A stretch of DNA of 64,000 nt, taken from NCBI GenBank assembly GCA_023213395.1, contig CM041465.1, positions 31,441,741 through 31,505,740 of the forward strand, read 5' to 3'. The translations under genes and the position numbers were made by a program. The notes under the pieces are model-generated. The model did not search any database. It was given only the letters and a program-made list of their open reading frames with translations, and was not told the origin of the DNA. This document shows positions 13,847 through 46,800 of the stretch, piece by piece; the first letter of the stretch is position 1, and every line of letters starts with the position of its first letter. The DNA is from Cycas panzhihuaensis (taxonomy: Eukaryota > Plantae > Cycadophyta).

Positions 13847-16800
13847 TATTAGAAAATAGAACCTACAATAAGATATTGGCAAACAGAATAGAATAGAATA
13901 AAAGCACCTCCACAGGATCAAACGGTACTCTTAAGGTACCTCCATTGTATTAACCAAACATCCTTACAACATATATGATATGATACACTATGTTATGTAT
14001 TTATAATACATGTCAATATAGAGAGAGTAAGACCCACTTACATGTGGGACAAAATAAATGTGCATTAATATTCTAACACTCCCCCTTAATATACATTTGA
14101 GTCATTTGCATTTGTAATGCCTTATCCTTAGAAATGTCTTGAAAATGATGTCTTTAACTTAATCCTTGTCTTTGATCTTGTAGTGATGTCTTTGCTGCAG
14201 AATGATATCTTCATCTTGATTTTCATCTTTAATTCTCTATTAATACCTTTGTAAGATGATATCCTCATCTTGATTTCCATCTTCAATTCTGTAGTGACAA
14301 TGTTGATGTAGCTACTTTAGCAAATGTAAATCTTGATTCTTTATTACGACTGGTCTAGTCTAATTGTGATGAAGATCCTGTAAGTAACCATCTTCATATA
14401 TAACTTGCTTGTCATCATTATCTTGTATAATTTCTTGATCACCATGTACAACAATGATTTCTTCAACCTTAGGAGTGGAGTCTTAATCAACTTACATACT
14501 CTTTGAACTTGAATCAATGCTCAAAGAAGGAACATCATTCAAACTTGAATCAATACTTAAAGTAGGAATATCATCAATATAGGACTCATCCTTTATAGGA
14601 CCATCAGATTCATATCCAATTTCTCTTGAAATCATGGTGTCATCTATATAAACCTTTATCAACTCACCACTTTCAATGTCTTCATCAGTAATTATGGTCT
14701 CATCAATGCATTTAACCATTGTTTCTTTACATTCAGTAGAAATTTCCTTAGTACTCATACATTCCTCATCTTGACATGTCATTTCATCAGTGTTGATGAT
14801 ATTTTCTTCATTCATTGTACTTGTACCATAACCATAATTGGCCTTAATTGCCTTTTCAATCATTCGTTGTGTCTCTTTAGGAGTTTGTTCAAATCCTTCC
14901 TTTAGAAAATCCCAAGCTTCTTTAGCAATACTTGCATGTAGAACCATAGGAATCACAAAATGGTATTCAGAAGGAAGATCAGCCTTGTTGAATGCAGCAT
15001 GAATCATAATTAATGTTGTTCTATCTTTCTTCTCAAGTATTTCCTTTTCGTCTTCATCCTTAGGGATATCATATCTATCAGTAATAATCTTCCATAAACC
15101 TCTAGCTATGAATAAACATCTCATTTTAATTATCCAAAAGAAGTAGTTTTCACCATAATACTTAGGTACTGGAAGAAACAAATCCATTAGGTAGTATTTA
15201 TTCATTTGTTTCAGGAACAAACATAACCACATAATTATCATCCATGATTGTAAATGCCATTTCCACACACCACGTCCCTTTTCAATCAATTAACTCACCT
15301 ATTAATCAATCTCATCAAACTTTTTCATATCTTATGTCTCTCACATCATTGACTTTATCATCACATCATTGCCTTATGTATCTCCCATATTATCAAATAG
15401 TCATATACAACAAGTATCTAAAACTCTTATCAAGTCAATGCCTAAGCCACATACATCCCATGGGAATCATGCTAAAAAACACAACTCATGCCACTACACT
15501 TACACTTCAGGTAACTTCAACAAACAACTCATCCTTCTTTGCATTCAGTTAATTAACAAAGCAACTCTAATTTCGTCCTTAACATGCCCCAACAAATGTC
15601 CAATCTTGTCATGTAACCTCACATGTTATAATTGCCTTATATCACTAAATCATCACCTCACTCGTTCCCTCATGTAAACACATACAAGAGAAACAATAGA
15701 CATCTCTTCGTAAAACACCTCATATTACGTCATTACCAAATTTATTCTTCCATGTAGATTACATACTAGAGAGCAATGTAAAGCCTCAAACTTCATCTCA
15801 TGTCAACACATCAAACCAAGACCTTACTTCAAAAAATTACTCACTCATATCGCCATAAAGCCATAACTGTAAGGACTCCACTATCAACTCAATGCCAAAG
15901 ATTGCTTCCTTGTAACAATAACTCGCTTTCTTATCAATCATTACCTTGATCGCAATGCCTTCTTATTACCCTTCTCTTGCCCTTATCATGCCCTCAATTT
16001 TTCCTGTCGAATTGATTAAAGAATACACCATCAAAATATGTCAAATCTTGCCCTTAACATGTTCAACAAATGCCCAAACTTGAGATGTAATCCTAATAGC
16101 TTTTAATTATTGCCTCTCAAGCATACCTTATGTTATTAAAGTACTCCCTCATATCACCCTATAATATTAGCATTACCCAACTTATTCTCTTATGTGCAAC
16201 ACACGTAAGGGAGCAAACAATCACCTCAAATCACTCACTAACATTGCCCCAACAAAATGTGCTCTCTTCATCTCAACTTATCATCATATCAAAACAAAGT
16301 CTCACAATATATTTACGCCACTTTCTCAGAAAATGATACACTTATATATTCATCACTATGTTGGTAAATAACATCCCATAATATCATATATCAATGCATG
16401 TCTCTCAAAGTGACTTGAAGGTACTTTATTGATGACAAAGATAAAAGGGCATCTTAAAACCAAAACCCTAAATCGATTAATAATAAATAAATAACCAATA
16501 AAACAACATTGGGCAGCTTCATATCAAATAAAGTGACTTGCATAAGTGACATTATAGCTCATCAAACGTCATTCAATATATGTCAAAATATATATCAAAG
16601 AAGATATTATGGATAGGTGACTGCAAGCATTCACTGTAACTGTGTATTCATATGGCAGATTATAAAATGCAAATTAATAGGGCACAAATATGGATGTATT
16701 CAGGCAAAAATAGTGACTATAAATGACAGTGTAAACATGAAACTGTGATGCAACGAATTTCACGAGACAATGGATAATGGATGACTTTAATCAAACAGCA

Positions 16801-18002
16801 GTTTAAACAATAAATCACGCAACAGGTGTTAATATCATGTAGATAGCTTGTTAATATCATGCAAAGTAATGGGCGTCTCAATGACATTATAAGGGACGAC
16901 ATCTGGTTGTAAAAGAATATCATGCAATCACCATTCATGCGAATACAAACTACAATGTAAATGTTAATTATGCGAGTGGTGATTTCATTACGTGGATATG
17001 GGCAACTGCAAATCTATATAACCAGGCGAGTTAGATGTACATTACGGATACAACTGGGCATAATATAAGACACAGATAATTACATGTCACATTAGCGAGT
17101 AGATAATAATCTATGGGAGAAGATATAAATCATATGAAATGTAAAGAGTGCCAAATATAATAATGGATGACTACAAATTATATACAGATGATATGAGACA
17201 AAAGAATGGATGCAATATTAACGAAGAGTTAAACAGAGGGTGAACAGTGAGTTAATGCCAACGGCTGATTAAATACGCAAACACCATTTTATGTAAGGTA
17301 AAGAATACAATACACAGGCTGAAATATTATTATTACACATCAATAATATAATAAATCTAACGGTCTATATGTGCAACCCCAAAAGGTGAAAATATTAATG
17401 GCATAAGTTCAGCACCAATTGTGGCATAAGCATGACCAGAGTATTTCAGCTGTTATAGTAGAGACATCGATAAAACTAGAAAATGAAGAATAACACATGA
17501 TGAAATAAGAGATAACGGATAGCAAATATCACACAAACAACAAGTATTTAGTAAATATATATTTGAATATAGCTTTAAAAATGATCATATTATGACTTCA
17601 CAATTCTACAACTAGGGTTTGCATTCTTCCAGAGCTCAACTGAGGGTTGATAATATCTCTAGGTCATACAAATGAAAACGGGCATGAACAACTCTATGAA
17701 GCCACCTCCTCAAAATACCTCTCTCAATTGGGCACTCATAACCTCTCTCAACCTGGGCACTTTGATACAATGTTGGAAAATAGAATGTGCAATAAAATAT
17801 TGGCAAATAGAATAGAATAGAACAAAAGCACCTCCACAAGATCGAATGGTACCCTTAAGGTACCTCCATTGTATTAACCAAACATCCTTATAACATATAT
17901 GATATTGTATACTATGTTGTGTATTTATAATATATATCAATATAGAGAGAGTAGGACCCACTTACATGTGGGACAAAACAAATATGCATTAATATTCTCA
18001 CA
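13847..18002 (-). mobile_element. Non-autonomous gag-only (TR-GAG-like) LTR element C, nested in the leader of B
   Basis: 232-bp LTRs at 13847-14078 and 17771-18002 (about 23 mismatches by manual count, mostly transitions), degenerate PBS at 17759-17770, PPT aagggggag at 14079-14087, no pol. Confidence 0.92.
14492..15245 (-). pseudogene. gag: Truncated copia Gag (DUF4219/UBN2-like N-terminus) with acidic tail
   Basis: PVPKYYGENYFFWIIKMRCLFIARGLWKII...AKEAWDFLK. The likely true start is near 15245 with a frameshift. Homologous to the D and H proteins. Confidence 0.8.
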
Positions 18003-30038: not shown

Positions 30039-31999
30039 ATGAGAGAATGGGAGCCTACAATAATACTTTTTTGAGTGATTTGAATTCCCCTTGATAAATA
30101 AAATCCCAAATGAATGAGATATTTTAATGACATGATCAATATATTGGTTGTATTTTAGAAACTAGGCCAATAATTAATCTTCATAAATAGTTGATTTTAC
30201 CTAAAAGAAATCTTATCTAGATGATGGTAAGAGATAGAGACATTTCTAATATCACTTTAATCTTATTAGGATCAATGTTTTTTTTTTTTTTTTAAATACC
30301 AAGGGAATAAACATCAACCCCACTCTATAATCGCCACTACAGATGTGAACCTTCATAGTAGTTGTCACGACTAGAACACTTGGATAATGTACAAAGTGCC
30401 TCTCTCTATACTTCATAGGTAAATTGTAAGGGATTTGACCTAGTGACCCTGGTATCAACACCATGGGTATTAACACCTATTAACTATTACACAACTACCT
30501 AGGGGGGCTTATTGGGATCAATGTTAATACCTAACACACTAGTAATAAACCCTTTCAACTTTTCAACTATTATAGTAAACACACCTTTTGTTGAGTTTAG
30601 ACAAATTAGATATTTGTTATATTTTTTAAATATTAACTTGAGGTCTTGAATATGATCAATTTACTTTAAGAAGTAACCATTTAGATCATCAACATATGTG
30701 TGCAACACATTACACAAAATTAAATCATGAAATATAATTGTCATGACTTATTGGTACAATGCAATTATGGTAACAAGTAAGAAAGGTATAACTTGATAAG
30801 CATAAATGCCCTAAGGGGTTATAAATGATCCTTTAATCTAATCATGCTTAGCTAAACAAGTTTGGTTGTAGCCAAGAAAACTATCTATTGAGAACATGAC
30901 TTCAAATCCAATAGCAAAATCCACAATTATTTCAATAAATAGTAATGGAAAGTTGTCTTTTGTATAGGCTTAATTAAGTTGTTGAAGATTGCCACACATG
31001 CAAATGGAACCATTCTTCTTCATAACTGATACAACATTCAAAATCCATTCTAGGTAATTGATAAGATAAAGAAGTTTAGTTTTCAAAAGTTTTTCAATTT
31101 CACTTTTAATCAATTTTTCCAATTGAGATTTGATAGGTCCTTTTTTTGGCCTAATAGGTTTGGCATTAAAATATATGATAATGTTGTGAACAATGATATC
31201 TAGAGCTATTATAAGCATGTCATTATATGACCAAGCAAACACCACTTGAAATTTTTAAAACAAATTTATATAAGCATGTTTTTCAAGAGGTGACCATTCT
31301 TATCCTAGTTTGATAATTTAAGGGGTCTATGATGCTATAATATCTAGAGTGTTTATATCAAATTACTCATATTTTAATTTTATGGGACCCTTCTTATTTA
31401 ATAAAATATTATATTGTAGAGAGATGAGTTGATTGGGTGACCACTCATTGTCGGAGTTAATTATCATCACTCCACTCCCACCTTCCAACCAGAGGAGCAC
31501 ACCTCATCATCTTCAATTTACACATGTGGGTGCTCAACATGTGTAGGTAAGTTAAGGTAAGTTTAATGTTGATTTAAGTTAATTTGAGTTAGTTTCATTT
31601 GAGTTAAGTTAGTATTATTTTATCATTAATTTAAATTTTAGGGGTTGAGGAATTTCCCTCCTCCCCCAAAATTATAAATATTAAAGGGTGTACAACCCTA
31701 GTGTCTTTAGATACTGCCCTCATTTGGGAAATTTGTAATGATCACTTCTTACAATGGATTGAATATAGAAGTTTCATGTGTTTATGCTACAACAATATAT
31801 TGATGTATTGATCTATTGAAGTTTATTATATATTTTGCCCTGTTCTTCTTGAATATTATTTTCTACATTTGGTATCAGAGTTACTTGGAGCTCCATATTT
31901 TTTTCAACATTTGGTATCAGAGCAGACGATTGTTGGCCTACTAAAATTTTTGCAAAGAAGGAAAGTTTATTAGCATTTTGAAGCAGATTTGCTCACAAG

Positions 32000-32800
32000 T
32001 AAAATATTGGTTACATTTATTTTCTACAAATTATTTTTCAGCAGTTTCATATATTTTTCATCAAGATTTACTTATTATTGAGTTATATTTGAAAAATAAC
32101 AAAGATATTTCAGATTTTTCATAGATTTGTGTAGATTTATGAAGGATTTCAGCTACAAGCTACATTTTTTCAAAGGTTTTTTCATATCTGAGTTATATTT
32201 TTTTATATCTGCATATCTTATCATATATTTGACTATTTTCAACAATATTTCTACCTATTTATCTAATATTTATACAGATTTGTGAAGGAGATCAATAGAA
32301 AGCTATATATTATTCAAGTTTTCTTCATATTTATGATATATTTTCTCAAATCTATATTTTTTTATCAAATATCTAGCATTTTTCAAGCAGATTTCTATCT
32401 ATTTATCAAATAATTTTCAGATATGTGAAAGATTATAGCTACATACAATATTTACTCAAGTTTTTTCTCATATTTGAGTTATATTTCTTTAAGATCTGTC
32501 TTATATTTTTTTAGATCTGTTACACTTACGTCAGATCTACAATATTTAGCTTAAGATCTATAATATTTAATAAGTTTTCTTCAAGATCTACATTTTTTAC
32601 TTTAAATCTACTATATTTCATTTTAGATCTGCTTATTTCAACAATTATTTTAACATTTTCTGGTATATTTATTGTAGGTTTGCAACATTTAGTTTAGATA
32701 TGCTATATTTCATTTCAGATCTATATTTTTCCATTATATATTTGACTATATTTTTAAGTTTTTTTATAGATCTACATTTTTTTTGGTATATTCAGCCTTC
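32000..32800 (+). repeat. Degenerate AT-rich tandem repeats (agatct-containing short units; ~140-bp units) in the F leader
   Basis: agatt.tgaagga...agcta recurs near 32131, 32274 and 32417; repeated agatcta/agatctg at 32490-32780. Confidence 0.6.
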
Positions 32801-33779
32801 TGGAGAAGCATAAATAGCATATCTCTTCTTTTAAGACCATTTTCTATTGCAAATCAGTTATAACTACGTTTTCCAGGTTCTTCAGATTCTTTTTCAAATT
32901 TAAACATATATTTTTAATATATCTGCAACATATTTGAAAAGATTTCAGAATACATATACATGCATTTCATTTGCTTGATATATTTTTATCAAAATATTTG
33001 AAATTTTCTGGTTCATTTGAACTCCATTGAATCGACAACAAAGAAAACTCATCATTTTTTCATATTTTTTTGTATAAATATATGTTTTTTTGAAATATTT
33101 CATCATATCTTTCTTCCTACATTTGGCATAAACTGACATACACATAGAGATACAGAGCCAAAAAGAAATAGAACTCTATTGTAATATGCATTCATCCCAT
33201 TAGAAGTTCATAAGATCTTGTTTAAATAAAAAAGGGGAAATAAATCCTTTATTTTGAAATAAACACATAAGATTCATTTTTAACAAAACCCCTATATAGG
33301 GCACTATATATATATTCTGGATTGCTTGTTCAAAGTATATAATATTAATAAATTGTTGAGTTGATAATCCTCCAAAATATTCTAATAAACTCTCAAATAC
33401 GTGAAAGTAGAAGAAACACATGAAGGAAGAGGAAGCGAAAAAGCTGTACGTAAATCTCAAGTCCTGAATAAGAGGAAGTGAATCCTAGAAACCCTTTATT
33501 TTTACTTCAAGGTTAATATACGGTAGCTCAGATTTGAGGTGCCTTAATCGCTTTATTCTTATACTGAACTCATCAATTATTGACATTATCTTTTATATGT
33601 CAAGTTCGACCCATAATGTGGTAGAAGTTTTTTTTGACAGCATCCTAAAAATCATCATAGACAGTGTATATTGCTGAATAGTTTTTCAATGCATGAATGA
33701 TATTTGAGAGTGCAAAGTGAGACTAGTATTAGATCTACACCTTCACATATATAGGCAATCACTTTGCTATTGCCATCTC

Positions 33780-34020
33780 ATCTTTCCTTCCTTGCAAATC
33801 CATTAAGAGAATATTATAAGTAACAACGTCAAACAACAAACCTTTCCTTGTAATTTCATTTTGTAGCACAATAGCTTCCTGTGTATTGCTAACAGTATCC
33901 ATCAATGATTACACTGTAAGTCGCAATAGTGGGTTTAATACCTCACTCCATCATTTTCTCAAACAATCATATTACCTTCATGCACATTACCTTGCTTTGC
34001 ATATTCATTAATTAAGGGCG
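33780..34020 (-). pseudogene. Captured P-class pentatricopeptide repeat (PPR) gene fragment
   Basis: Minus-strand translation with frameshifts: ALINEYAKQGNVHE..LFEKMME*GIKPTIATYSVIIDGYC..NTQEAIVLQNEITRKGLLFDVVTYNILL, about 2.5 canonical PPR repeats. Confidence 0.9.
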
Positions 34021-34124
34021 TTTCTGATTAGTGTTAAAGGCATAATCATTCATGTATTTGGATCCCTAGAATTGAGTCTACAGATCTCACCTCACGTTGG
34101 GGGCTCAGAATCTTGAAATACACC

Positions 34125-34268
34125 TCCAGTCCTCTGCTGATTCAATCCACCACTGGCTTCAATTATCAAATAACCATTGGAGTCCCTCTCAGATACAACT
34201 GATGCAAAATAAGGGATCGGATCACTACAGCCATGATAAAATTTTGAATATTTTGAATGCCATATATC
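34125..34268 (-). pseudogene. Captured plant O-fucosyltransferase-family (DUF246) gene fragment
   Basis: 48 open codons, DIWHSKYSKFYHGCSDPIPYFASVVSERDSNGYLIIEASGGLNQQRTG, containing the family motif GYL.I..SGGLNQQR. Confidence 0.9.
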
Positions 34269-36725
34269 GAGTGATCTAGCACATTCCTTTTATAGGTTAT
34301 TTGTAATACAGCATTGGATCTTTAGAAATGATATATAGGAATACTCGTTGGTAAATATTTTCTGGCTTTATTATTTATTGATGCTTATCCCAGAGAAAGA
34401 GAATGCCCAGGCATTCTAGATAGGTGTGGGAACTGTTCCAGTCAAGTAGAGGTCTCGTAATGATCGATATCAACACCAATACAATTAATATCGAGCCACA
34501 CAAAAAAAAAGAAAACGAAGGAATCCTCATCTATGACCGAATTTTCTGCTGTTGTTGTGCCATCACCATTACTCACACCAGAAATGCTTAGATAAAGAGA
34601 CTGTTTCGAATCACACTTCGCAAAAGCTTTCACCACACAGACCGAATTCTAGAGCTATGCATTTATTCATTGACTGTCCCTCCATTATGTAGAAACGGTG
34701 TCCTCTGATGCCTTTTCTGACACTCCTATTGCCATTACGAAACCTCCAATCAGCCTCTGCAAAATATTCTGCTCCGCGTCTGTATGAAACTGTTATATAA
34801 GGATATATTCCAGATTTAAAAAATACAATGGTTTTCTGATCCAGACACCTTCTATTTGATTCTCCTTAGTACCTTCGTTGACATAAGTAATTCATTTAGC
34901 ATGCCCGGTGGCACATCCTCCTTCTCCTCGAGCTCCGTTCAGGCCATATGCATGAGATCCTTCGCATCTAGATCTTCCCTCTACAAATGGCAGTCGTGGT
35001 AGGTGAAGTCTGAATAGGCGATGGCATTGCAGTGCAACGCCATTTTAAATTTGAACATTTTTTTATATTTTTTCATTTCTAAAGTTTAAAAAAAATTAAA
35101 TTATTTTGAATAATTTTTTAAATATGGGGTGTAAAAAGCCTAGCCCCCTCTTGAGCCTCAGCCCCCAGTCCCATTTAGTCACTACGTGACTGTTAGGGAT
35201 TATTAAAGGGGCCAGCACCTTTATAAACCTTTTTTTCTTTTTCTTTTTTTTTATTTTTTATTTTACATAGGGTTACTAGCATTTTTTTGCCATAACTCCT
35301 CACTAAGTCATCAGTTTCTGACAAAACTAGTTTCATTATGTCATAAATGTTTTGTAGATCAGTTTTGACTAGTCAGATGACCAATTTGAACCTTATTTGA
35401 CCCCATTTCAGCCGATTTAAAGTCAATCAGTCTTTTTTTTACCTTTTTTTAAACCTTTTACAAAATCACTTTTTGAAATGATTGTATTTTATTACTAAGA
35501 AACTATTTTCTACCCAAATTTATTCCACAATGATATACCTTCAACAAACTTTATTAACAACTATTTATTTTAATTTTTAGAATTTATTTTCATCATTATT
35601 TTAATCACCAAAGTGGCACTTTAGTGGTTTTTAGCACTTTTAAAACTTTTTACCATAAAAGTACATGTCGCTAATTTCATTGTAACTTCTCTGTTTTACA
35701 TCAGAATTTAGTCCCGTTAGTTTCGCTGGGAAAGTGACTCATTCCCCTTTGATATGGCATAGTTTTTTATATGTTTTAACATATTTTTACTAATTTTCAA
35801 ATTGCTCAAATTAGAGGTACTTAATTACCTCCAACATGCCATTTTTACACATTTTTATATATATTTCTCAAAAATTTTCAGCTGAAAGTATATTGCGTAG
35901 TCTTCTAAATAATATTTAATCATTTTTCAGTATTTTATAAAGTTTTATTAGTAAGTTTATGTTTTTTTGAGCTCCATGCTCCCTTTAAGCCCAAAAAAAG
36001 AGGCCTATACCTTTGATTCATAAAAAATTAACTTGTAAGAACCCATTTTTAAAACAGTTAGTTCCATTAGATAGATATTTTATTAATCTCCATATTGGTG
36101 AAGATTTATATTCTTCTGATATCATTTAGTATATTTTCAAAGTAGCCAAACTTGAGGTTATCCTCTAAACCTTCTTTTAAAAAGCGTTTCTTCATACTCC
36201 TTATCTTTCAAAGTAAAATATACATATATTTCAATTTTTTTCATCATTGTATATTATCATCAAGGCTAAGGATTTACTGCATTAAGAGTTTATATTTATT
36301 CATTTAAAACTCGAAAGGTTAAGATCATTTTTTATCATCAAAGTTTATTTTAAATTTGCTTAAGATATTTATTATATTCAAATTTTCTCTTATATTCATT
36401 TCATTTCAAAGTTTATTTGAAAAGCACACCTATTGAAAAGCCATTTTTATCATTATTGAAATGATCATTTCCTTATTATGTTTAGTTCATATATTTTACA
36501 AAGGCATACATATATTGAAAGCATTTATCATTATTGTAAAGATTATTTTCTTATTGCAACCTAAAAGTTGCATCCTCTTAATTTAACCTGTAAAAGCATC
36601 TTTCATTTTTTAAAGGGCATTATATCTCCTTTAAAAAGTTTATTTGAAATCATATAAATTCATTCATTTATTGACTTCTTAATTTGGTAAAAGCATACCT
36701 TTTATGTACTAAATTTTTTTTTTAA

Positions 36726-37431
36726 ATGACACAATTTCCTATTTTCGATGGGCACAAATTTTCACTTTGGTATAATACTATGCAAGACTATTTTATTGAA
36801 CATGATCTTTTGAAATATTTACAATATGAGTGTAATCTAAGTATTAAAGAAAATTTTAGAAAGGATGATGAAGTTTTATGATTATTATTTTGCACTATGA
36901 ATGATGATATTTTTTCAAAGGTTTTTTAATTAACTACTTTTAAATCTGTTTGGGATGTATTGATTTCCACTTATGGGGGAGATACCCTCAATGTATTCGA
37001 TGATATTTTTGATGAGCATATGAGACATATGACAGAATAGGTGAATCATAATGACAACACTCATGAAGATTCAGATCAAATGCAGGACCAACTCAAGTAC
37101 CTGATCCTCCATTTGAGGGGGAGAATGAATCTTATAACATGATGGAGAATGAATCTTATGATATGATAGAAAAGAGACCTAATGATATGACAGTCAAAGT
37201 TAAATTTCCAGAAATTAAAGTTAAAGTTGCAACTATTCTTTTTTGTACAAATCAAGCATCATTTACTTACAGTTTTTTTACATCATTCTATGGTAAAGAA
37301 ACATATGTGGCTATAAGGATGAGAATAGTTGATAAAGATCAAGATCAAAATTTTAAAGTTTTTTTCAAATACAAGTTCCATAAGTTCAAGGAGAAGATAC
37401 AAGTATTTGTGATGACCATTAAGGGGGAGAA
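36726..37431 (+). pseudogene. gag: Short copia gag N-terminus fused to an RNase H-tail remnant (element F)
   Basis: MTQFPIFDGHKFSLWYNTMQDYFIEHDLL...FKSVWDVLISTYGG, ending KFHKFKEKIQVFVMTIKGE at the PPT. Confidence 0.75.
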
Positions 37432-39741
37432 TGTTGGAGTTAATTGTCATTAGTCCACTCCCATCTTCCAACCAGGGGAACATACCTCATCATCTTTAAT
37501 TTATACATGTGGCTGCTCAACATGTGTAGGTAAGTTAAGGTAAGTTTAATGTTGATTTAAGTTAATTTGAGCTAGTTTTATTTGAGTTAAGTTAGCATTA
37601 TTTTATTATTAATTTAAATTTTAGGGGTTGAGGAGTTTCTCTCCTCCCCCAAAATTATAAATATTGAGGGGTGTGCAACCTTGGTGTCTTTAAACACTGC
37701 CCTCATTTAGAAAATTTGTAATGCTCACTTGCCATAATGGATTGGATATAGAAGTTTCATGTGTTTATGCTACAACAATGTATTGATGTATTGATCTATT
37801 AAAGTTTATTCTATGTTCTGCCCTATTCTCCTTGAATATTATTTCCTACATTTGGTATTAAAGCTACTTGGAGCTCCATATTTTTTTCAACACTCATAAA
37901 GTTGATAGGTTGATAATAACCACTCACCACTTACATAGGATCCATTGATCAACTTTATTAATTCACAAAAGGATCCTATATTGAGTTGGCCTATAACTAA
38001 GTTGAAGTTTAGGATTCTTTTAACTATCTTACTCGATAAATATTTCCATTAGGGATCTACTTCTATTGCATTGCTAGGGGCAAGAGTTAAAGGACCTAGT
38101 TTCTAAATTATTAACTATTCAATTATACTTTGAAGTTCTTCTTTATGCACTCTAATTTCTAATAACATCAATTATTTCCTTAATAAGCATTAGGTTACCC
38201 TTTTCGAAATATTTAAAAGTAGGGGCTAGTATATCATCTAGTCCATAAAATTATGATGATCAACTAGTGGATCTAATTTGTAGGATGCCACCTATATTAG
38301 AGATATCTAATTAAAAATAATAAAGATCGAATAAAACCATTGAATAGTTGACACGGGTTTTAGGTAGAATTAGTCTACTTATATGTTTCAGTTTTCATTC
38401 ATTAGGAATGGCTCCACTCTACACATAGTGTACATCCATATATATTTATAAATATAAGTAGGATTAGTAATGGTCCAAATAAGAACTCGTAACTACCCTA
38501 ACATGTCATAACTGCATTAAGGACTTTTGTAACTCCTATGACACATCATCAAGCTAGTGATGAATTGATGACTCACCAATACAAATTTATTCTATGTAAA
38601 TATTAGTTTCTAATAAGGTCTATTAATGTTCATATCATTGGCTTTAATGTCAATACAAGATCTCAATTTATCCAACTTTCCTCTAGCTAATAGTTTGGTG
38701 AATATATCTTCTAGTTGCTCTTTTATTGATTTATATACAAGCTTAACCTTTCTATTCTAAATATACTTCTAGATGAAATGATGATACACTTTAAGGTATT
38801 TGGTGTAATCATAGAACACTAAATTCTTGATAATTTTTAGAGTACTTTGATTGTCATAGTACAATATAGTTACCTCTTCCTAATAAAGTCCTAAATTGCC
38901 AAGCACCTATCTCAATTAGATGGCCTTATAAGTTGCTATAATAGTAACTTTATATTCTAATTTGGTGGATAACAATGTAGTATTAGGTTACTTTTCATTG
39001 TTCTAAGTAACAACAACATAACTCAAACTGAAGCAATAACCTGAAATGTACCTTCTATTATCTGCATACCCAACTTAATCAAAATTTAAATATCTCTCTA
39101 GCTAAAAATTATCATTTTGACTAAACTCTAATCTAAAGTATAATGCCCCCTGTAAATATCTTAAGATCCTCTTTATAACTTTCTAATAGCTCTGCTTTGA
39201 TTCTACCATGAATCTCAATACTATACCAACTACAAAAGATATGTCATGCTTGGTTGTAGTTAAGTAAATCAAGCTACTAATTAGTTGCTTAAACATTGTT
39301 CCATCAATACATTCCTTATCATTTAGAGTTGTTAAATCCAAATATATTTCCATTTTGGTTGGTATAGGTTCATATTCCTCTGTTTTAAACTTTTTTAGAA
39401 TTTTCCATGTATATTTAGCTTGTGGAATAAAAAATTTTCTAAGCTTTTACCATAGTTCAACTCTAAAAAAATAGTGGAGCAATCCAAGATATATTATCTT
39501 AAAGATTTGTTTAAGATCACTCTTTAGGATTCTAACCTTTAAGGTATCATTCCTTGTAATCATAAGGTCATCCACATACAGCACAACAAAGATGATTAAA
39601 TTTCCTTCAACCTTGATATATAAGCTTGGATCAGTTGACAACCTCTTAAACCCATTATCCAAAAAGTATTGATTGATCTTAGGGTACTAAGCTCTTAAAG
39701 CTTGCTTTAGACCATACAAAACCTTCTCTAAGTGACATACC

Positions 39742-42700
39742 TGTTGAAATATACAAATAGATCATCCAAGGTACAAGAACCATAGAGTAAATAACATGAA
39801 CATAATATGATATCATTAACTCATAATGAAAGAGATCACATCAATAATATCATAATGGACTCCATCTTAACTCAATATATTATGCTCTATCTTAGCCACT
39901 TATTTATACATATTAGGTGGGAGAGAGTAATATGACTTGTGTTACATGTAGGATAAATGATCTCCAACACAATCAACCACATAACACTTATTCATTGACC
40001 AATAATCTAATAACTACTTAGTTGCACATATGTGCAGTACCCCTAAATATATTAGGATACATATATATTAAACATTATCCTCCAACACCTCCCTATAATG
40101 TTTAATATCAAGACTATAAAAAAAAATAACTTAATACTAAAGACTAATATGACACTTGACACTAGACTTGCGATATTAAACATTTGACCAATATGTACTC
40201 TACATTCTTTGAATTTGTAGCGTCTTGATCTTGGAATAGTCTTGAACACAATGTTTTCACCTTGATCTCTGTCTTTATTCTTGTAGTGTTATCTTTGAGA
40301 TAGTCCTTTAGAGTGATGGTCCTTGAACTTTGCCTTCTTCATCTTCATATGCAATAGGGAATCTTTTGTCATGCAAAACGTGCGATAAATCATGGCCAAA
40401 TCAACTTGAGCCTAATGTAGACTTGTCAGGTGATCCTGTATGTACTCATCAAAAGCATCTTCAAAGTGTACATCAAGTGTATCTTCAATCAATGTTTTAG
40501 TCATTGCCTATTTACTTTCATTTTCATCAATATATGATTGATCAATAATTATTGAACAAATATCAACATTTGAAGATAAGTCAATAAGAGAAGAATCAAC
40601 ATCATCAACATCCAAATATGAAGACAAGTCAGTAAACGGTAAATCAATATCACTTAAAATATAAACATCAACATCTTATAAGCCATCATAATCTTGTATG
40701 TATTCCTTCTTAACAATTCCTTCAACTTTAAGTGGAAAGTCTTCATCATCTTGAGAGCAATTAGGATTAAAACTAGTAACTAAATTAGAAATGGAAATAG
40801 ATTTTACTTCATCAACTTCATCCTCCCCTGAAGTAATGAATTCATCTAGAGGAATTTCAATTGCTTCTTCACAATCACCTGCAGTAGGTTCAACATGCTC
40901 TTCAAGTTCAAGAATACATTCAACAATAGTTTCATTAGTAATCTCATCAATTTCTTCACATACTTTTTCATTTGCATCATCACTTTCCTTATCTATATTA
41001 CAATCATCAATAATTATGTTTGCCCTTTCAAGAGTCTCTTGCACCTCTTTAGGGATTTTTTCATATATATTCTTTAGAAGATTCCATGCCTCATTAGCAG
41101 TGTTAGCATTATGAATTATATGAACAAGAAATTGATATAAAGAGGGAAGGTTTTCTTTATCAAATGCTGCAAGAATCACATCAATGGCTACCCAATTCTT
41201 TTTCTTAAAACTTTCCTCCCCTTCATCATTAATCTCTGAAGTGCCATGCCAAATAATTTCCCATAACTTTTTTACCATAAATATACACTCTATTTTTATT
41301 TTTTAAATACAAAAATTAGTTCCAATATACTTGGATAAGGCCTGGGGAATATCTGTTAACTAAAATTCATTCTTTTCTAGCACAAAAATAATAATGTCCT
41401 ATAGATCTATAATGAAAAGAGTAACTTGATTACAAGCACATTACTCAAATTTATGCATCAACTTTGAATAATACTAACTCCATCAAAATAGCAAGATATT
41501 GCCCCAAATCATATACCAACATATTCGTCTCTGAGATACAATTTCAATGCCTTAGATGGATTAGAACGTAGGTCTCTAAATAGAGAGATATTGTAAAATT
41601 TATACTAAGAACTTCTTAAGCACTAAAACTAAATAAAGGTAATCTTAAGCCCCTTAAGAATAAGTTGCAGGTCGTATTAAAGTTCCATGAGACCAAAAGA
41701 CTTAGTCGCTAGGGGGCTAACAAGTTCCAAACCATATTTCAATATGACTTTGCAAAAATTATAAAAATTTTCTTAATAATCTTCACATATGCATCCTTAA
41801 GCTCGAAATAACTTGCCAATTAGTAAATTTCAGATTTGGACTTGGTCCTACGCAGGTCTCTCAACTTCTTTATAGCATTGATGAAGGGTTGCAGGTTGAC
41901 TTGAGCATCTCTTATTTTGTCATCTTGCTTAATCAGGTCCCTGTCATTGACTTCCAATTTGTGGCTGGTATCATGACCTATGGCTGATATCTTGACCTAT
42001 GTTGACAAATGACTCAACTCTCTAGTGGTTAGCAACTCGTCCACTATGATGCAACCTCTACAAATATCTCACTAGGTAGCATGCAACTTCATCCATGGCT
42101 CAGAAGTAGGTTTGACCAGGGCAGGTATCTATCTTATGGTTAATGCCTTTAATATGACCCACACAATGTAGATACGACCCTGTGTATGAAGGCTCAAACC
42201 ATAGGTACCTACAATAAAAGAAGAGCAACCTTCATCGCCCCTCTGCTCACCTCCAAAGATTAATGCAATGCTAAACCCAAATAAGTAAGACACATCAGTA
42301 TTTCCATATTCTATCCATTAAGGGTGCAAACAAAAACATTATACATTCTGAAGGTCATGGATAGATATAACTGGCCAACTCCCTGCAATATCATTGGGAT
42401 GATTGGAACGTGATGTGGATGAGGTGTGGTGTTAGGGATTTTTTTGGCACATTTGTGGCATATAGTAGAAAATGTCTTCCTCTCTTTTTATATACAAAGT
42501 TTTGATAGTTATTAAATCCCTAACTGACTAGGGGAATTTCTATTATACTAAACATTTCTCTACAATAAAACCTTCTAGATCCTTGAACTATATGTAATAA
42601 TAGATAAATTATAGGAATAACTATAATATAGCAATACACAGTAATCCTTGGTGAGGAATTATAGCCATGATAATGCTAGTATGTATATAAGGTTGGTTCT

Positions 42701-43846
42701 ATTACAAAGAAGATTTAGACTTGCAATGTTCTAATGATAGTGTACCTACTGGTACTACCATCTATGATCTTATATTATCACTTTTATATCCATTTTCTTC
42801 CAACAGTTCTTGTGCAACTAATAAGCTTTCTGGTGCATATTAGACCACACAAAAACTTGCCTAAAACTAAATCAATAGTCCTACAACTATTGATGGATTG
42901 CAGTGGCTAGATTTCTATAGACAACTGCCCTCATGGTGGGTGACTTCTCCCTATTTTTCATGTAGAGATCTTATATACAACAAGCTCTTCATAGATTTCA
43001 TAATCTATAGTTGGGTGTTTATTCTTCACATATCTAATCCTATTGTCTTTTTTTTTTTATGCATGCATGCAAGATAGATTTTTCAAAGAAAATAATTTGT
43101 ATAAATTTGATAATTATCTTTAATTTTCACCAATCAGATCCTTAATGATTCCAACACAAACCCTTGTATGTATGAAGTCAATACTTCAACCAGTGGTTCA
43201 AATTCATGAAGATAATTTCATGTCATCACCAAATTAAAACTTTTATAAATTCACATAATAAACCCCGACACGTAGCTTTCTTCTTATACTAAGGTGGGTG
43301 AATGATATTACCTAAAAATAATCTTATCTGGCATCATCAAACATGGTTATTAGTTTGGCAACAAGGATGGCTTCAGAATTTCATCTTCTATAAGTGAACC
43401 ATAGACAATACTCAGCTCTACGAAGCCACCTCCACCTCTAAACATAGAAATGATGAACCTACACAAAGATAAACTTGGCAACCAACCTGCTCTGATACCA
43501 TATTGAAACATACAAAGAGATCATCCAATATACAAGAACCATAGAGTAAATAACATGAATATAATATGATAGTATTAACTTATAATGAAAGAGATTACAT
43601 AAATAATATGATAATGGACTCCATCTTAACTCAATATATTCTACTGTACCTCAACCACTTATTTATACATCTTAGGTGGGAGAGAGTAGTATGACTTGTG
43701 TTACATATGGGATAAATGACCTCCAACACAACCAAACACATAACACCTATTTATTGACCAATAACCTAATGACCACTTAGTTACACATATGTGCATTACC
43801 TCTAAATATATTGGGACACATACACATTAAACATTATCCTCTAATA
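39742..43846 (-). mobile_element. Non-autonomous gag-only (TR-GAG-like) LTR element D, inserted in the RT of E
   Basis: 346-bp LTRs at 39742-40087 and 43501-43846, TSD ATACC, perfect PBS (gctctgatacca at 43489-43500), PPT at 40088-40094. Confidence 0.95.
40676..41400 (-). pseudogene. gag: Truncated copia Gag with acidic tail (element D)
   Basis: KKLWEII...AAFDKENLPSLYQFLVHIIHNANTANEAWNLLK, homologous to 14492-15245. The upstream part contains stops. Confidence 0.8.
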
Positions 43847-46800
43847 ATACCAAGTGTTCTTTGTCTTAATAATATATCTAGATGGTTATTCCATATAGAC
43901 TTCTCCATGAGATCTCTATTAAGGAAGACACTTTTGACATCAAGTTAATGTAGTTGCCATTTAAACTGAGTAATTATGTCCAGTATTAATCTTATTGTTA
44001 CCATCTTGGATACTAGAGTAAATGTCTCACAATAGTTAATACCCTCTATCTACTTGAATCCTTTGGCTACTAATTTAGCCTTATATTTATCAATAAAGCT
44101 ATCAAATCTGAACTTGGTCTTATAGACCCATTTCCATCTTATCCCATATTTGCTTGGGGTAAATTAATCAAGTCTTAAGTCTTATTCTATTGAACAAACT
44201 AGATTTTAACATCTATCGTTGTTCTCTACTTCTACTTCTAGTTACCCTCCTTAAAACATGAAGGCTCTTCAACACTCAACACATCTTCCATAAAAGTAAA
44301 ATTAATTTAATTAGGTCTCATCTTTGATTTGTATTTTCCTTCTGTCTTCAGAAATTAAACTTCTATAATGGTCTTCAAGTACTATTTAGGAAGTTTTTAG
44401 TGGGTGCAATGACCTCAAACTATATATTTAATTGTGATTCCTAAGCATCTTTATATTCCTCATCCTCACCTACCTCTTATTCTTCCTCCTCATCTCCATC
44501 TTCCTACTTTGGCTTAGTTTTTGGCTCAATAAACTATTACCTTGAAGAACTACATTTAGGTTGTTCCTTAATCTACTTCCCTTTATCTTACTAAATCTTC
44601 AAAGTGTCCAAGCCTTGGTCCTAATCTGAAACTTGCTTATCAACTTCTTAAAAAATGATGACCTAAGTTGTATGTACCTTCCTAGTTGCCAACTCATATA
44701 ATTGATATGCTTTGCTCTCTTTATTATATCTTACAAGAATGTACTGAGAACTTTTATTATCAATTTTTTTGTGTTTATCCTTAGAAACATGCATATATAT
44801 TATGCTTCCAAATAGTCTTAGTTGGCTCATTGTAGGTTTTTGTCTTGTCCATGCTTCTTCAAAAGTTATATTCCATACAACTTTTGTAATGCTCTTGTTA
44901 GTTAGATATGATATTGTATAAATAACTTCAGCCTAAAAGATATCTAAGAAATTATTTTCTTTCATCATTGACTTGGCCTTTTCGACTAAGGCCCTATTCA
45001 TCCTCTCAACTATGCCATTTTTCTATAGTGTGTATGTTATCATCAATTGCTTCTTAATTCCATGGTCCTTGTAGAATTAGATAAATTTATTAGAGGTGTA
45101 TTCTCCCCCATTATCTACTCTAAGTATCTTCACCTTTTTATACTATCATTTTCTACTTTTACCTTAAATTCTTTGAAGTTATCAAATACTTAGGATTTCT
45201 CCTTTCTAGGATATATCCAAACCTTCCTTAAAAGAATGTAGTAGTCTTACAGCTTCATCTATAGGGTTTATGAATAGAATACTCTTAAAAATAGATAACA
45301 ATCCAAAGATATACTAGCAAGAAGGAAAATTACAGCAATACATAATGAACAATAACCACTGGATAATATCTCAAGTTTAGAAAGTAAAATGCATGAAAAG
45401 ATAACCAATAGAATAAATATAAGTTACCAATTACTCCTACAAGTTATGCTAAAATAAATGGTCCCTCTTCGAGGTAAGCTACCCTCCACAATTACTACCC
45501 TAAGGCCAAAATTATAACAGTCCAAGTTTTTCCTCTTGATGATCCACATGAAACCCATAACCACCCTTAAATAGGTAGCCAAAATTCATAAAAGTAAGTC
45601 AACCAAAAAAGTTATAAAAACTTTTTTTAATAGAAATATGAAGTCAAATAGAAACTCCTTTAAAAATAAGTACTTAAATATCTTCATGGAAGTCAATTTT
45701 TCTACTCATCAAGAGATCGTCTAAATAGCCTTCTAAAGCATTTAGAATACTACAAGTCCCTCCTCTTGAAAGTGTGTTTTGCCCTTAAAGCATAGGTAAG
45801 TGTAGATATTTCCGAAGCCATCTTTTTATTTCTAAGTGGCATTGTTATTATCCCCTACCTTCTATTTTATAAGATATTCCTTGATATCTCTAGAACGAAG
45901 TCTTTTGGCATGCATCTGTAGAATACTTTCTGGCTCTACTATAATTTTTCCTTCATCATCTAATATAGGTATGTTTGACTAAGGAAAAACACCTTCCCCA
46001 AGTTTTTACTTGAGGAAAGAAATAGAAATATATTTTGGATGCAACTGGTAAGAGAAACTTTTAATTGGTATGCTACTTCCCCTATTTTAGCCAGAATTTT
46101 GTAGAGCCTAAAGAATATAGGTTGTAGTTTGTATTGGCCCAATTGTTTTAAGTTAGTTTGCTTGTATGGTTAAACGCAAAGAAATATCCAATCCCCTAGC
46201 ATAAAAGTTCATTCTATTCTATGTAAACTAACTTGTTATTTCATTCTATTTTTGGCCAAATTCAAATTGTCCATTAAAATTTCCATAATGTGATGTATCT
46301 ACTATTGTTCCTCTTAGACCATATGGACTTTAGATGTTCGAGTCTATTTAAGAAGTGATAGTGGTTCAAAACCATATAGGGCTTGAAATGGTGTCATCTT
46401 GGTGATGGTATAGTATGGGGTGTTATACCACCATTCAACCAAAGGAAGCCATTTATACTATTGGTGTTATTTATTAGTAGTGAAGTTTTGTAAATATCCT
46501 TGTAAACATTTATTAATGGCCTCTATTTACCCATCGATTTATGGATGATATGTCATACTCATATTTATCTTGGTACCTACAACCAATTGTACCATATTAG
46601 AGCTTTTCCATAAAGGTGAAGAGTTACTACCACCAATAGAGCTTTTTCCAAAAATAGATAACAACCCAAAGATATACTAGCAAGAAGGAAAATTATAACA
46701 ATAGATAATGAATAATAACCACTAAATGATATCTCAAGTTTAAAAAGTAAAATGTATGAAAAGATAATCAATAGAATTGATACAAGTTACCAAGTACTCC

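What the first reader, a model, noticed from the sequence alone, without database searches (positions are those of the whole stretch)
41850..43420. LRR-receptor snippet array in the leader of gag-only element D
Plus strand (antisense to D): QVDLS, LSLTSN, LTYVD, TNISLGS, NFIHGS, ITGQLPA (42367-42387), LNIS, NKLSG (42820-42834), GLQWLDF (42895-42915), DLIYNKL (42967-42987), IDFSK. D has the same Gag as C and H but an LRR-type rather than PPR-type array, suggesting the array is a swappable, target-specific module.
Basis: partly seen in the sequence, partly recalled or inferred. Interest (0 to 1): 0.8.

Follow-up and report, generated by a model that had tools for sequence, protein, structure and literature searches.

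The report
Gag-only retrotransposon with variable leader
This old plant jumping gene has a variable stretch ahead of its only gene, but the supposed receptor-gene snippets there are no commoner than chance, so it is likely an ordinary decayed element; a neighbouring element does carry a real reversed piece of a host gene.

Summary
Element D is real: a 4,105-bp minus-strand LTR element (39742-43846) with TSD ATACC, iMet-type PBS, PPT, 89%-identical LTRs, a decayed copia-type gag and no pol. All 11 quoted words are present. They are not enriched, however. In a likelihood test built on plant LRR receptors, 51 of 62 control stretches score higher than D's antisense strand, and 0 of 40 simulated arrays of 11 decayed 21-nt snippets score as low. 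Pfam, PDB and 1.8 billion proteins give no LRR hit. One post-hoc hint remains: the best words crowd into one reading frame (2-19 of 300 codon shuffles). The 'module' idea is half right. The leader middle (about 41840-43430) is shared with neither C nor H and is roughly 100-fold less covered than gag and LTRs in related genomes. The gags are related, not the same (35-45%). Best reading: a TR-GAG-like non-autonomous element with a hypervariable leader and chance LRR-like words. The better lead is element E (31449-37892), also gag-only, which carries a true antisense PPR gene fragment in its leader.

The parts
39742..40087 (-). 3' LTR of element D (346 bp)
   Evidence: 307 of 346 columns identical to the other LTR; TSD ATACC at 39737-39741
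40088..40100 (-). polypurine tract
   Evidence: sequence next to the 3' LTR
40676..41302 (-). open part of a decayed copia-type gag with an acidic tail; the frame runs on, with stops, to about 40180
   Evidence: PF14223 E 0.0033, 17.3 bits, under the 27-bit cut-off; 35% identical to C gag; strong codon periodicity p 1e-19; frame read-through
41303..41840 (-). gag-proximal leader, alignable with element H
   Evidence: local alignment scores 88-140 against a null maximum of 70-75
   Evidence: no match to the C or H leaders; summed contig depth 9-274 against 2,300-30,000 in most gag and LTR bins
42510..42887 (.). 378-bp unit, single here but head-to-tail in relatives; matched by two contigs of a run guessed to be RNA
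   Evidence: back-joints 42887>42510 in runs X1 and X11, 42875>42509 in X3, 42835>42510 in X19
42806..42856 (-). imperfect hairpin on D's sense strand (stem of about 19 bp, extendable); NKLSG lies in its loop and arm
   Evidence: z -3.8, 0 of 200 shuffles (window chosen after looking); 5th best locus of the whole window
43488..43500 (-). primer-binding site TGGTATCAGAGCA (tRNA-iMet type; label recalled)
   Evidence: sequence
43501..43846 (-). 5' LTR of element D
   Evidence: TSD ATACC at 43847-43851
33804..33978 (-). comparison, outside the finding: P-type PPR coding fragment, antisense, in the leader of gag-only element E (31449-37892, + strand)
   Evidence: Pfam PPR_2 E 7.3e-6 and 0.013 in two adjacent frames; PDB PPR domains i-E 1.4e-5; forward score +11.3 bits, 0 of 62 controls

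Best explanation
D is an old LTR retrotransposon with a copia-type gag and no pol, likely copied in trans by an autonomous relative, and the middle of its 2-kb leader is a variable segment whose LRR-like words are likely chance. Shown: termini, TSD, PBS, PPT, gag, no pol hit, a leader middle unshared with C and H, tandem copies of part of it in relatives, and C>T/G>A decay of this copy. Inferred: the segment was gained or replaced by template switching between co-packaged RNAs or by recombination, tolerated because only the PBS-proximal and gag-proximal ends of the leader are constrained. Its source is unidentified.
For: Structure. Variable middle. D and C share a short motif just after the PBS, D and H share 41300-41840. 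No LRR enrichment. No LRR hit in Pfam, PDB, or 1.84 billion proteins for the richest frame. The positive control works: E's PPR piece scores z 10.8. Power: 0 of 40 simulated arrays of 11 x 21 nt score as low as D at either decay level. No codon periodicity (p 0.14) and no 24-residue phase in the segment. Decay: 27 of 36 differing places in run X19 are window A or T against contig G or C. Modular reshuffling and internal tandem arrays are described for non-autonomous LTR elements (PMC13570524, passages).
Against: The one-frame excess of LRR-like words is unexplained. With the top-8 statistic on real backgrounds, D's score is compatible with a decayed array (7-60 of 80 simulations of 11 x 21 nt scored no higher), and power for 15-nt snippets is low (12-42% for 11-20 snippets). 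Read by eye, less-decayed contigs keep NKLSG as NRLSG and one shows QLTGVI where the window has a stop. Element E proves that gag-only elements of this genome can carry antisense host-gene pieces in the leader. The LRR reference is 22 angiosperm proteins, not this plant's genes. Contig depth is not a copy number.
Confidence: 0.68

Rival explanations
1. The segment holds one or a few real but eroded pieces of an LRR-receptor exon, captured antisense like the PPR piece in E. They would be passive cargo that feeds cross-talk siRNAs only as a side effect of silencing.
For: The best words crowd into one frame (2-19 of 300 codon shuffles; lead over the second frame reached by 0-2 of 76 bins). Near-consensus runs such as ITGQLPA..SLG and PTTIDGLQWLDF. 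Precedent next door. TE gene capture is common in gymnosperms and maize (PMC13477047 passages; 10.1101/777037 abstract).
Against: No 24-residue phase and no codon periodicity. Chained-repeat score is mid-range. Best tblastn hit ranks 59 of 1217 and best HMM hit 156th in the window. E's capture, of similar LTR age (91% against 89%), is easily found; D's is not. The frame statistic was post hoc.
Confidence: 0.17
2. One reading: a decayed array of about ten short antisense LRR-receptor snippets, a swappable module that would yield small RNAs against host receptor genes, while sister families aim at PPR genes.
For: Variable segment between shared ends. Relatives of 42510-42835 occur in two deep contigs of a run guessed to be RNA. 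A hairpin lies in that unit. Mild PPR-word excess in C (0 of 66 bins, 1 of 100 shuffles) and a real PPR piece in E. Functional precedents: Athila siRNAs (PMC3817159 abstract), TART-A/nxf2 (PMC7785250 abstract).
Against: Forward test: -5.0 bits, 51 of 62 controls higher; 0 of 40 simulations as low for 11 x 21 nt, and 0 and 4 of 40 for 11 x 15 nt. Independent snippets should fall in random frames. H has no PPR signal, and C's is on the sense strand. In run X19 the match ends at 42835, so the second hairpin arm is not kept there.
Confidence: 0.1
3. The segment is a 5'-UTR intron or a captured non-coding tandem-repeat RNA, which would leave it free to vary.
For: A donor-like site near 43313 and a pyrimidine-rich acceptor-like site near 41420 on the minus strand, seen by eye. 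The 378-bp unit is tandem in runs of three organism labels.
Against: No splice joint among the 15 of 123 joints shown; no Rfam hit. Not exclusive of the main reading.
Confidence: 0.05

Closest known systems
TR-GAG non-autonomous LTR retrotransposons (Chaparro et al. 2015, PMC4350172; passages seen)
   Same: LTRs, PBS, PPT, 5-bp TSD, one copia-type UBN2/PF14223 gag, no pol.
   Different: D is 4.1 kb, just over their 4-kb filter. It has a 2.1-kb leader with a variable middle, an acidic gag tail, no zinc knuckle seen, and only a weak Pfam score.
Modular non-autonomous LTR elements of sugar beet (PMC13570524; passages seen)
   Same: Internal regions reshuffled between families; internal tandem arrays.
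   Different: Those passages do not mention captured host-gene pieces ('captured' 0 hits).
TE gene capture with siRNA cross-talk (maize, 10.1101/777037, abstract seen; gymnosperms, PMC13477047, passages seen; review PMC13317346, passages seen)
   Same: Element E fits: a host coding fragment inside an LTR element.
   Different: No donor gene can be shown for D. These papers describe exon-size captures, mostly one per element, not arrays of 15-25-nt snippets.
TE small RNAs aimed at host genes: Athila siRNAs (PMC3817159, abstract seen) and TART-A capture of nxf2 (PMC7785250, abstract seen)
   Different: There the target match and the small RNAs are shown; here neither is.

Membership tests
TR-GAG | two LTRs over 200 bp | tested here: met
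   346 bp, 307 of 346 identical
TR-GAG | PBS, PPT and 5-bp TSD | tested here: met
   TGGTATCAGAGCA, purine tract, ATACC on both sides
TR-GAG | gag domain (UBN2/PF14223) at E < 1e-5 | tested here: inconclusive
   PF14223 is the best hit, E 0.0033, under the curated cut-off; 35-45% identical to C and H gags
TR-GAG | no protease, integrase, RT or RNase H | tested here: met
   no such Pfam hit across the internal region (41300-41700 scanned on the minus strand only)
TR-GAG | length up to 4 kb | tested here: not met
   4,105 bp; so 'TR-GAG-like', not filed as a member
TR-GAG | two or more copies | tested here: met
   over 7,000 contigs laid per DNA run at 80% likeness
TE with captured host exon | significant homology to a non-TE host protein | tested here: not met
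   D: none. E: met
TE with captured host exon | nucleotide match to a donor gene in the same genome | not testable with these tools
   no genome held
Trans-acting small-RNA snippet array | excess of target-family words on one strand | tested here: not met
   one-frame hint
Trans-acting small-RNA snippet array | 21-24-nt RNAs from the segment, and target cleavage or methylation | not testable with these tools
   only contigs were laid; no small-RNA reads

The most novel reading that the evidence does not exclude
Gag-only LTR elements of this plant carry an exchangeable leader cassette filled with antisense pieces of large host gene families (PPR in E, perhaps C; LRR receptors in D). Expressed, partly tandem and hairpin-forming copies turn it into small RNAs against those families: a mobile, reprogrammable trans-silencing module. 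D would be an eroded copy in which the snippets have fallen below detection.
Probability: 0.12. Interest if true: 0.75.

Novelty: new member of a known kind. Interest (0 to 1): 0.3.

Why it matters
As it stands, little: one more decayed gag-only element, and a reminder that LRR-like 5-7-residue words arise by chance in 30-36% GC DNA. Two points are worth keeping. Several gag-only elements in one 64-kb window have long, unrelated leaders, and one of them (E) holds a real antisense PPR fragment. If young copies showed many such pieces and small RNAs, retroelements would be carrying swappable silencing cassettes against PPR and immune-receptor families, a route to the origin of TAS/PHAS-like loci (recalled knowledge).

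Tried and rejected
No genome is held. No gag relatives in the protein collection at near lengths or in JGI metagenomes. A pol query gave one distant hit and no lineage, so 'gymnosperm' is only a guess. The protein atlas gave no answer. No RNA holder was listed for D; runs X17 and X24 laid nothing on 42300-43060; neither is evidence. Rfam: 0 hits. D's leader has no internal repeats above the null except a 19-bp doublet. An array of hairpins: 9 weak stems against a mean of 5, reached by 2 of 38 bins, none strong; rejected apart from one hairpin. A contiguous LRR exon: rejected on phase, periodicity and Pfam. An open antisense frame: stop counts are ordinary. The first power simulation used shuffled backbones, overstated rejection and was replaced. 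A P-class PPR reference could not be obtained, so the PPR tests on C and H use a PLS-class profile and may miss P-class words. Rows left out: 22 of the 120 proteins (those named as plants) built the LRR profile, all 120 served; 40 of 121 PPR loci passed the ORF filter. Our earlier findings held nothing for this place or sequence. Paper searches for such arrays found no description; the library is partial and no supplements were read.

Full report
Setting. The window is AT-rich (31% GC), CpG-depleted DNA made of nested, decayed LTR elements, most likely from a large plant genome (inference from copia domains and a PPR fragment; the lineage was not established). No genome is held.

Anatomy of D. 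D spans 39742-43846 on the minus strand. Its 346-bp LTRs agree at 307 columns, ATACC flanks both ends, the PBS reads TGGTATCAGAGCA and a purine tract precedes the 3' LTR. It sits in the pol region of an older copia element. The only gene is a decayed gag (open 40676-41302; PF14223 E 0.0033; periodicity p 1e-19) with an acidic tail. No pol domain was found inside. The gags of C and H are related but not the same: 35-36% and 45% identity.

The leader is modular. D aligns with H from gag to about 41840 and shares a short post-PBS motif with C, but 41840-43430 matches neither. In three DNA runs laid at 80% likeness, summed contig depth is in the thousands over gag and most LTR bins, about 200 and then 100 at 41511-41804, and 9-93 over 41805-43127. 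Depth is no copy number and solo LTRs inflate the LTR bins, but the hundred-fold step says that most relatives carry another leader. A 378-bp unit (42510-42887) is head-to-tail in runs of three organism labels, and two contigs (depth 48 and 125) of a run only guessed to be RNA match it. In that run 27 of 36 differing places are window A or T against contig G or C, so this copy is the more deaminated one.

Are the words LRR snippets? All 11 are there. To test chance I gathered 120 LRR proteins and built a 24-position profile from 594 repeats of the 22 named plant receptors. D's antisense strand was ordinary in PSSM peak counts, against its own shuffles (best 51 of 200), in BLOSUM 8-mer matches, after composition control (9-60 of 76 bins), in chained-repeat scoring, and in tblastn and HMM ranks (59th, 156th). 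A forward-likelihood model that sums all weak matches gave -5.0 bits, with 51 of 62 real controls higher. Simulated arrays of 11 decayed 21-nt snippets never scored that low (0 of 40 at two decay levels); for 15-nt snippets 0 and 4 of 40 did. Pfam, PDB and 1.84 billion proteins (richest frame only) gave no LRR hit.

Results against my reading. Without composition control D+ ranked high (4, 11 and 12 of 76), and by that statistic a decayed array was not excluded (7-60 of 80 simulations no higher). The best words crowd into the frame starting at 41851: its lead was reached by 0-2 of 76 bins, and codon shuffles matched it 2, 10, 19 and 15 times in 300. That test was chosen after looking and should be multiplied by at least six frames; there is no 24-residue phase and no codon periodicity. 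By eye, less-decayed contigs read NRLSG for NKLSG and one shows QLTGVI at about 42605. A hairpin on D's sense strand (42806-42856) is the fifth most stable locus of the window, but its second arm is not matched in the guessed-RNA contig.

The PPR premise. With a PLS-class profile from 40 plant PPR proteins, H shows nothing and C shows a mild excess on its sense strand (0 of 66 bins at k=5-6; 1 of 100 shuffles). Element E (31449-37892, + strand, TSD CTCAT, PBS at about 31912, weak gag at 36789-36986, no pol hit) carries a real antisense P-type PPR fragment at 33804-33978 (Pfam E 7.3e-6 and 0.013; PDB i-E 1.4e-5; +11.3 bits). It is a contiguous capture of at least 175 bp, not a row of tiny snippets. 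It serves as a positive control and keeps capture in D plausible.

Mechanism. Most likely (0.68) D moved with borrowed pol (inferred from the missing pol, the intact TSD and many relatives). Its leader middle was gained or replaced by template switching or recombination (inferred; mechanism as reviewed in PMC13317346, passages), and its LRR-like words are chance. Next (0.17): a few eroded LRR exon pieces as passive cargo.

Known kinds. D works like a TR-GAG (PMC4350172, passages) but misses its 4-kb limit and strict gag score, so I call it TR-GAG-like. Gene capture by LTR elements and siRNA cross-talk are known (10.1101/777037, abstract; PMC13477047, passages); so is TE small-RNA targeting of host genes (PMC3817159 and PMC7785250, abstracts). 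Six searches found no paper on snippet arrays in such leaders; the library is partial and no supplements were read.

Verdict. Element and variable leader confirmed; LRR array not supported; new member of a known kind; interest 0.3. Element E and young copies of these leaders deserve the follow-up.

Noticed in passing
window 33804-33978 (-), in element E 31449-37892 (+): A true P-type PPR coding fragment, antisense, in the 4.9-kb leader of another gag-only element; PPR-like sequence seems by eye to extend from about 34010 to 33800.
   Followed up: partly
window 34425-34469 (-): LRR-like run SLRDLYLTGTVPTPI in E's antisense leader, 450 bp from the PPR piece; E- scores z 1.4-1.9 for LRR (5-7 of 62 controls higher), so only a hint.
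   Followed up: partly
window 15350-17700 (-), leader of C: Mild excess of PLS-PPR-like words on C's sense strand (e.g. at 16771, 16631, 17451); 0 of 66 bins at k=5-6, fading at k=7-10. C's leader also holds a degenerate internal duplication (about 15500-15750 and 15970-16260).
   Followed up: partly
window 42510-42887: 378-bp unit, tandem in runs of three organism labels and matched by two deep contigs of a run guessed to be RNA; less deaminated there.
   Followed up: partly
window 42806-42856 (-): Hairpin on D's sense strand, fifth most stable locus of the window; no covariation data.
   Followed up: partly
window 32133-32497: 143-bp tandem repeat (2.5 copies) at the start of E's leader.
   Followed up: no
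window about 43400-43430 and 17690-17715 (-): D and C share the motif GAGGTGGCTTC(G/A)TAGAG shortly after the PBS although their leaders are otherwise unrelated; a possible packaging or dimerisation signal.
   Followed up: no
L001-L053: Plant-type LRR repeats (N.L.G.IP) are common in viral contigs, including giant-virus bins, fused to varied domains.
   Followed up: no
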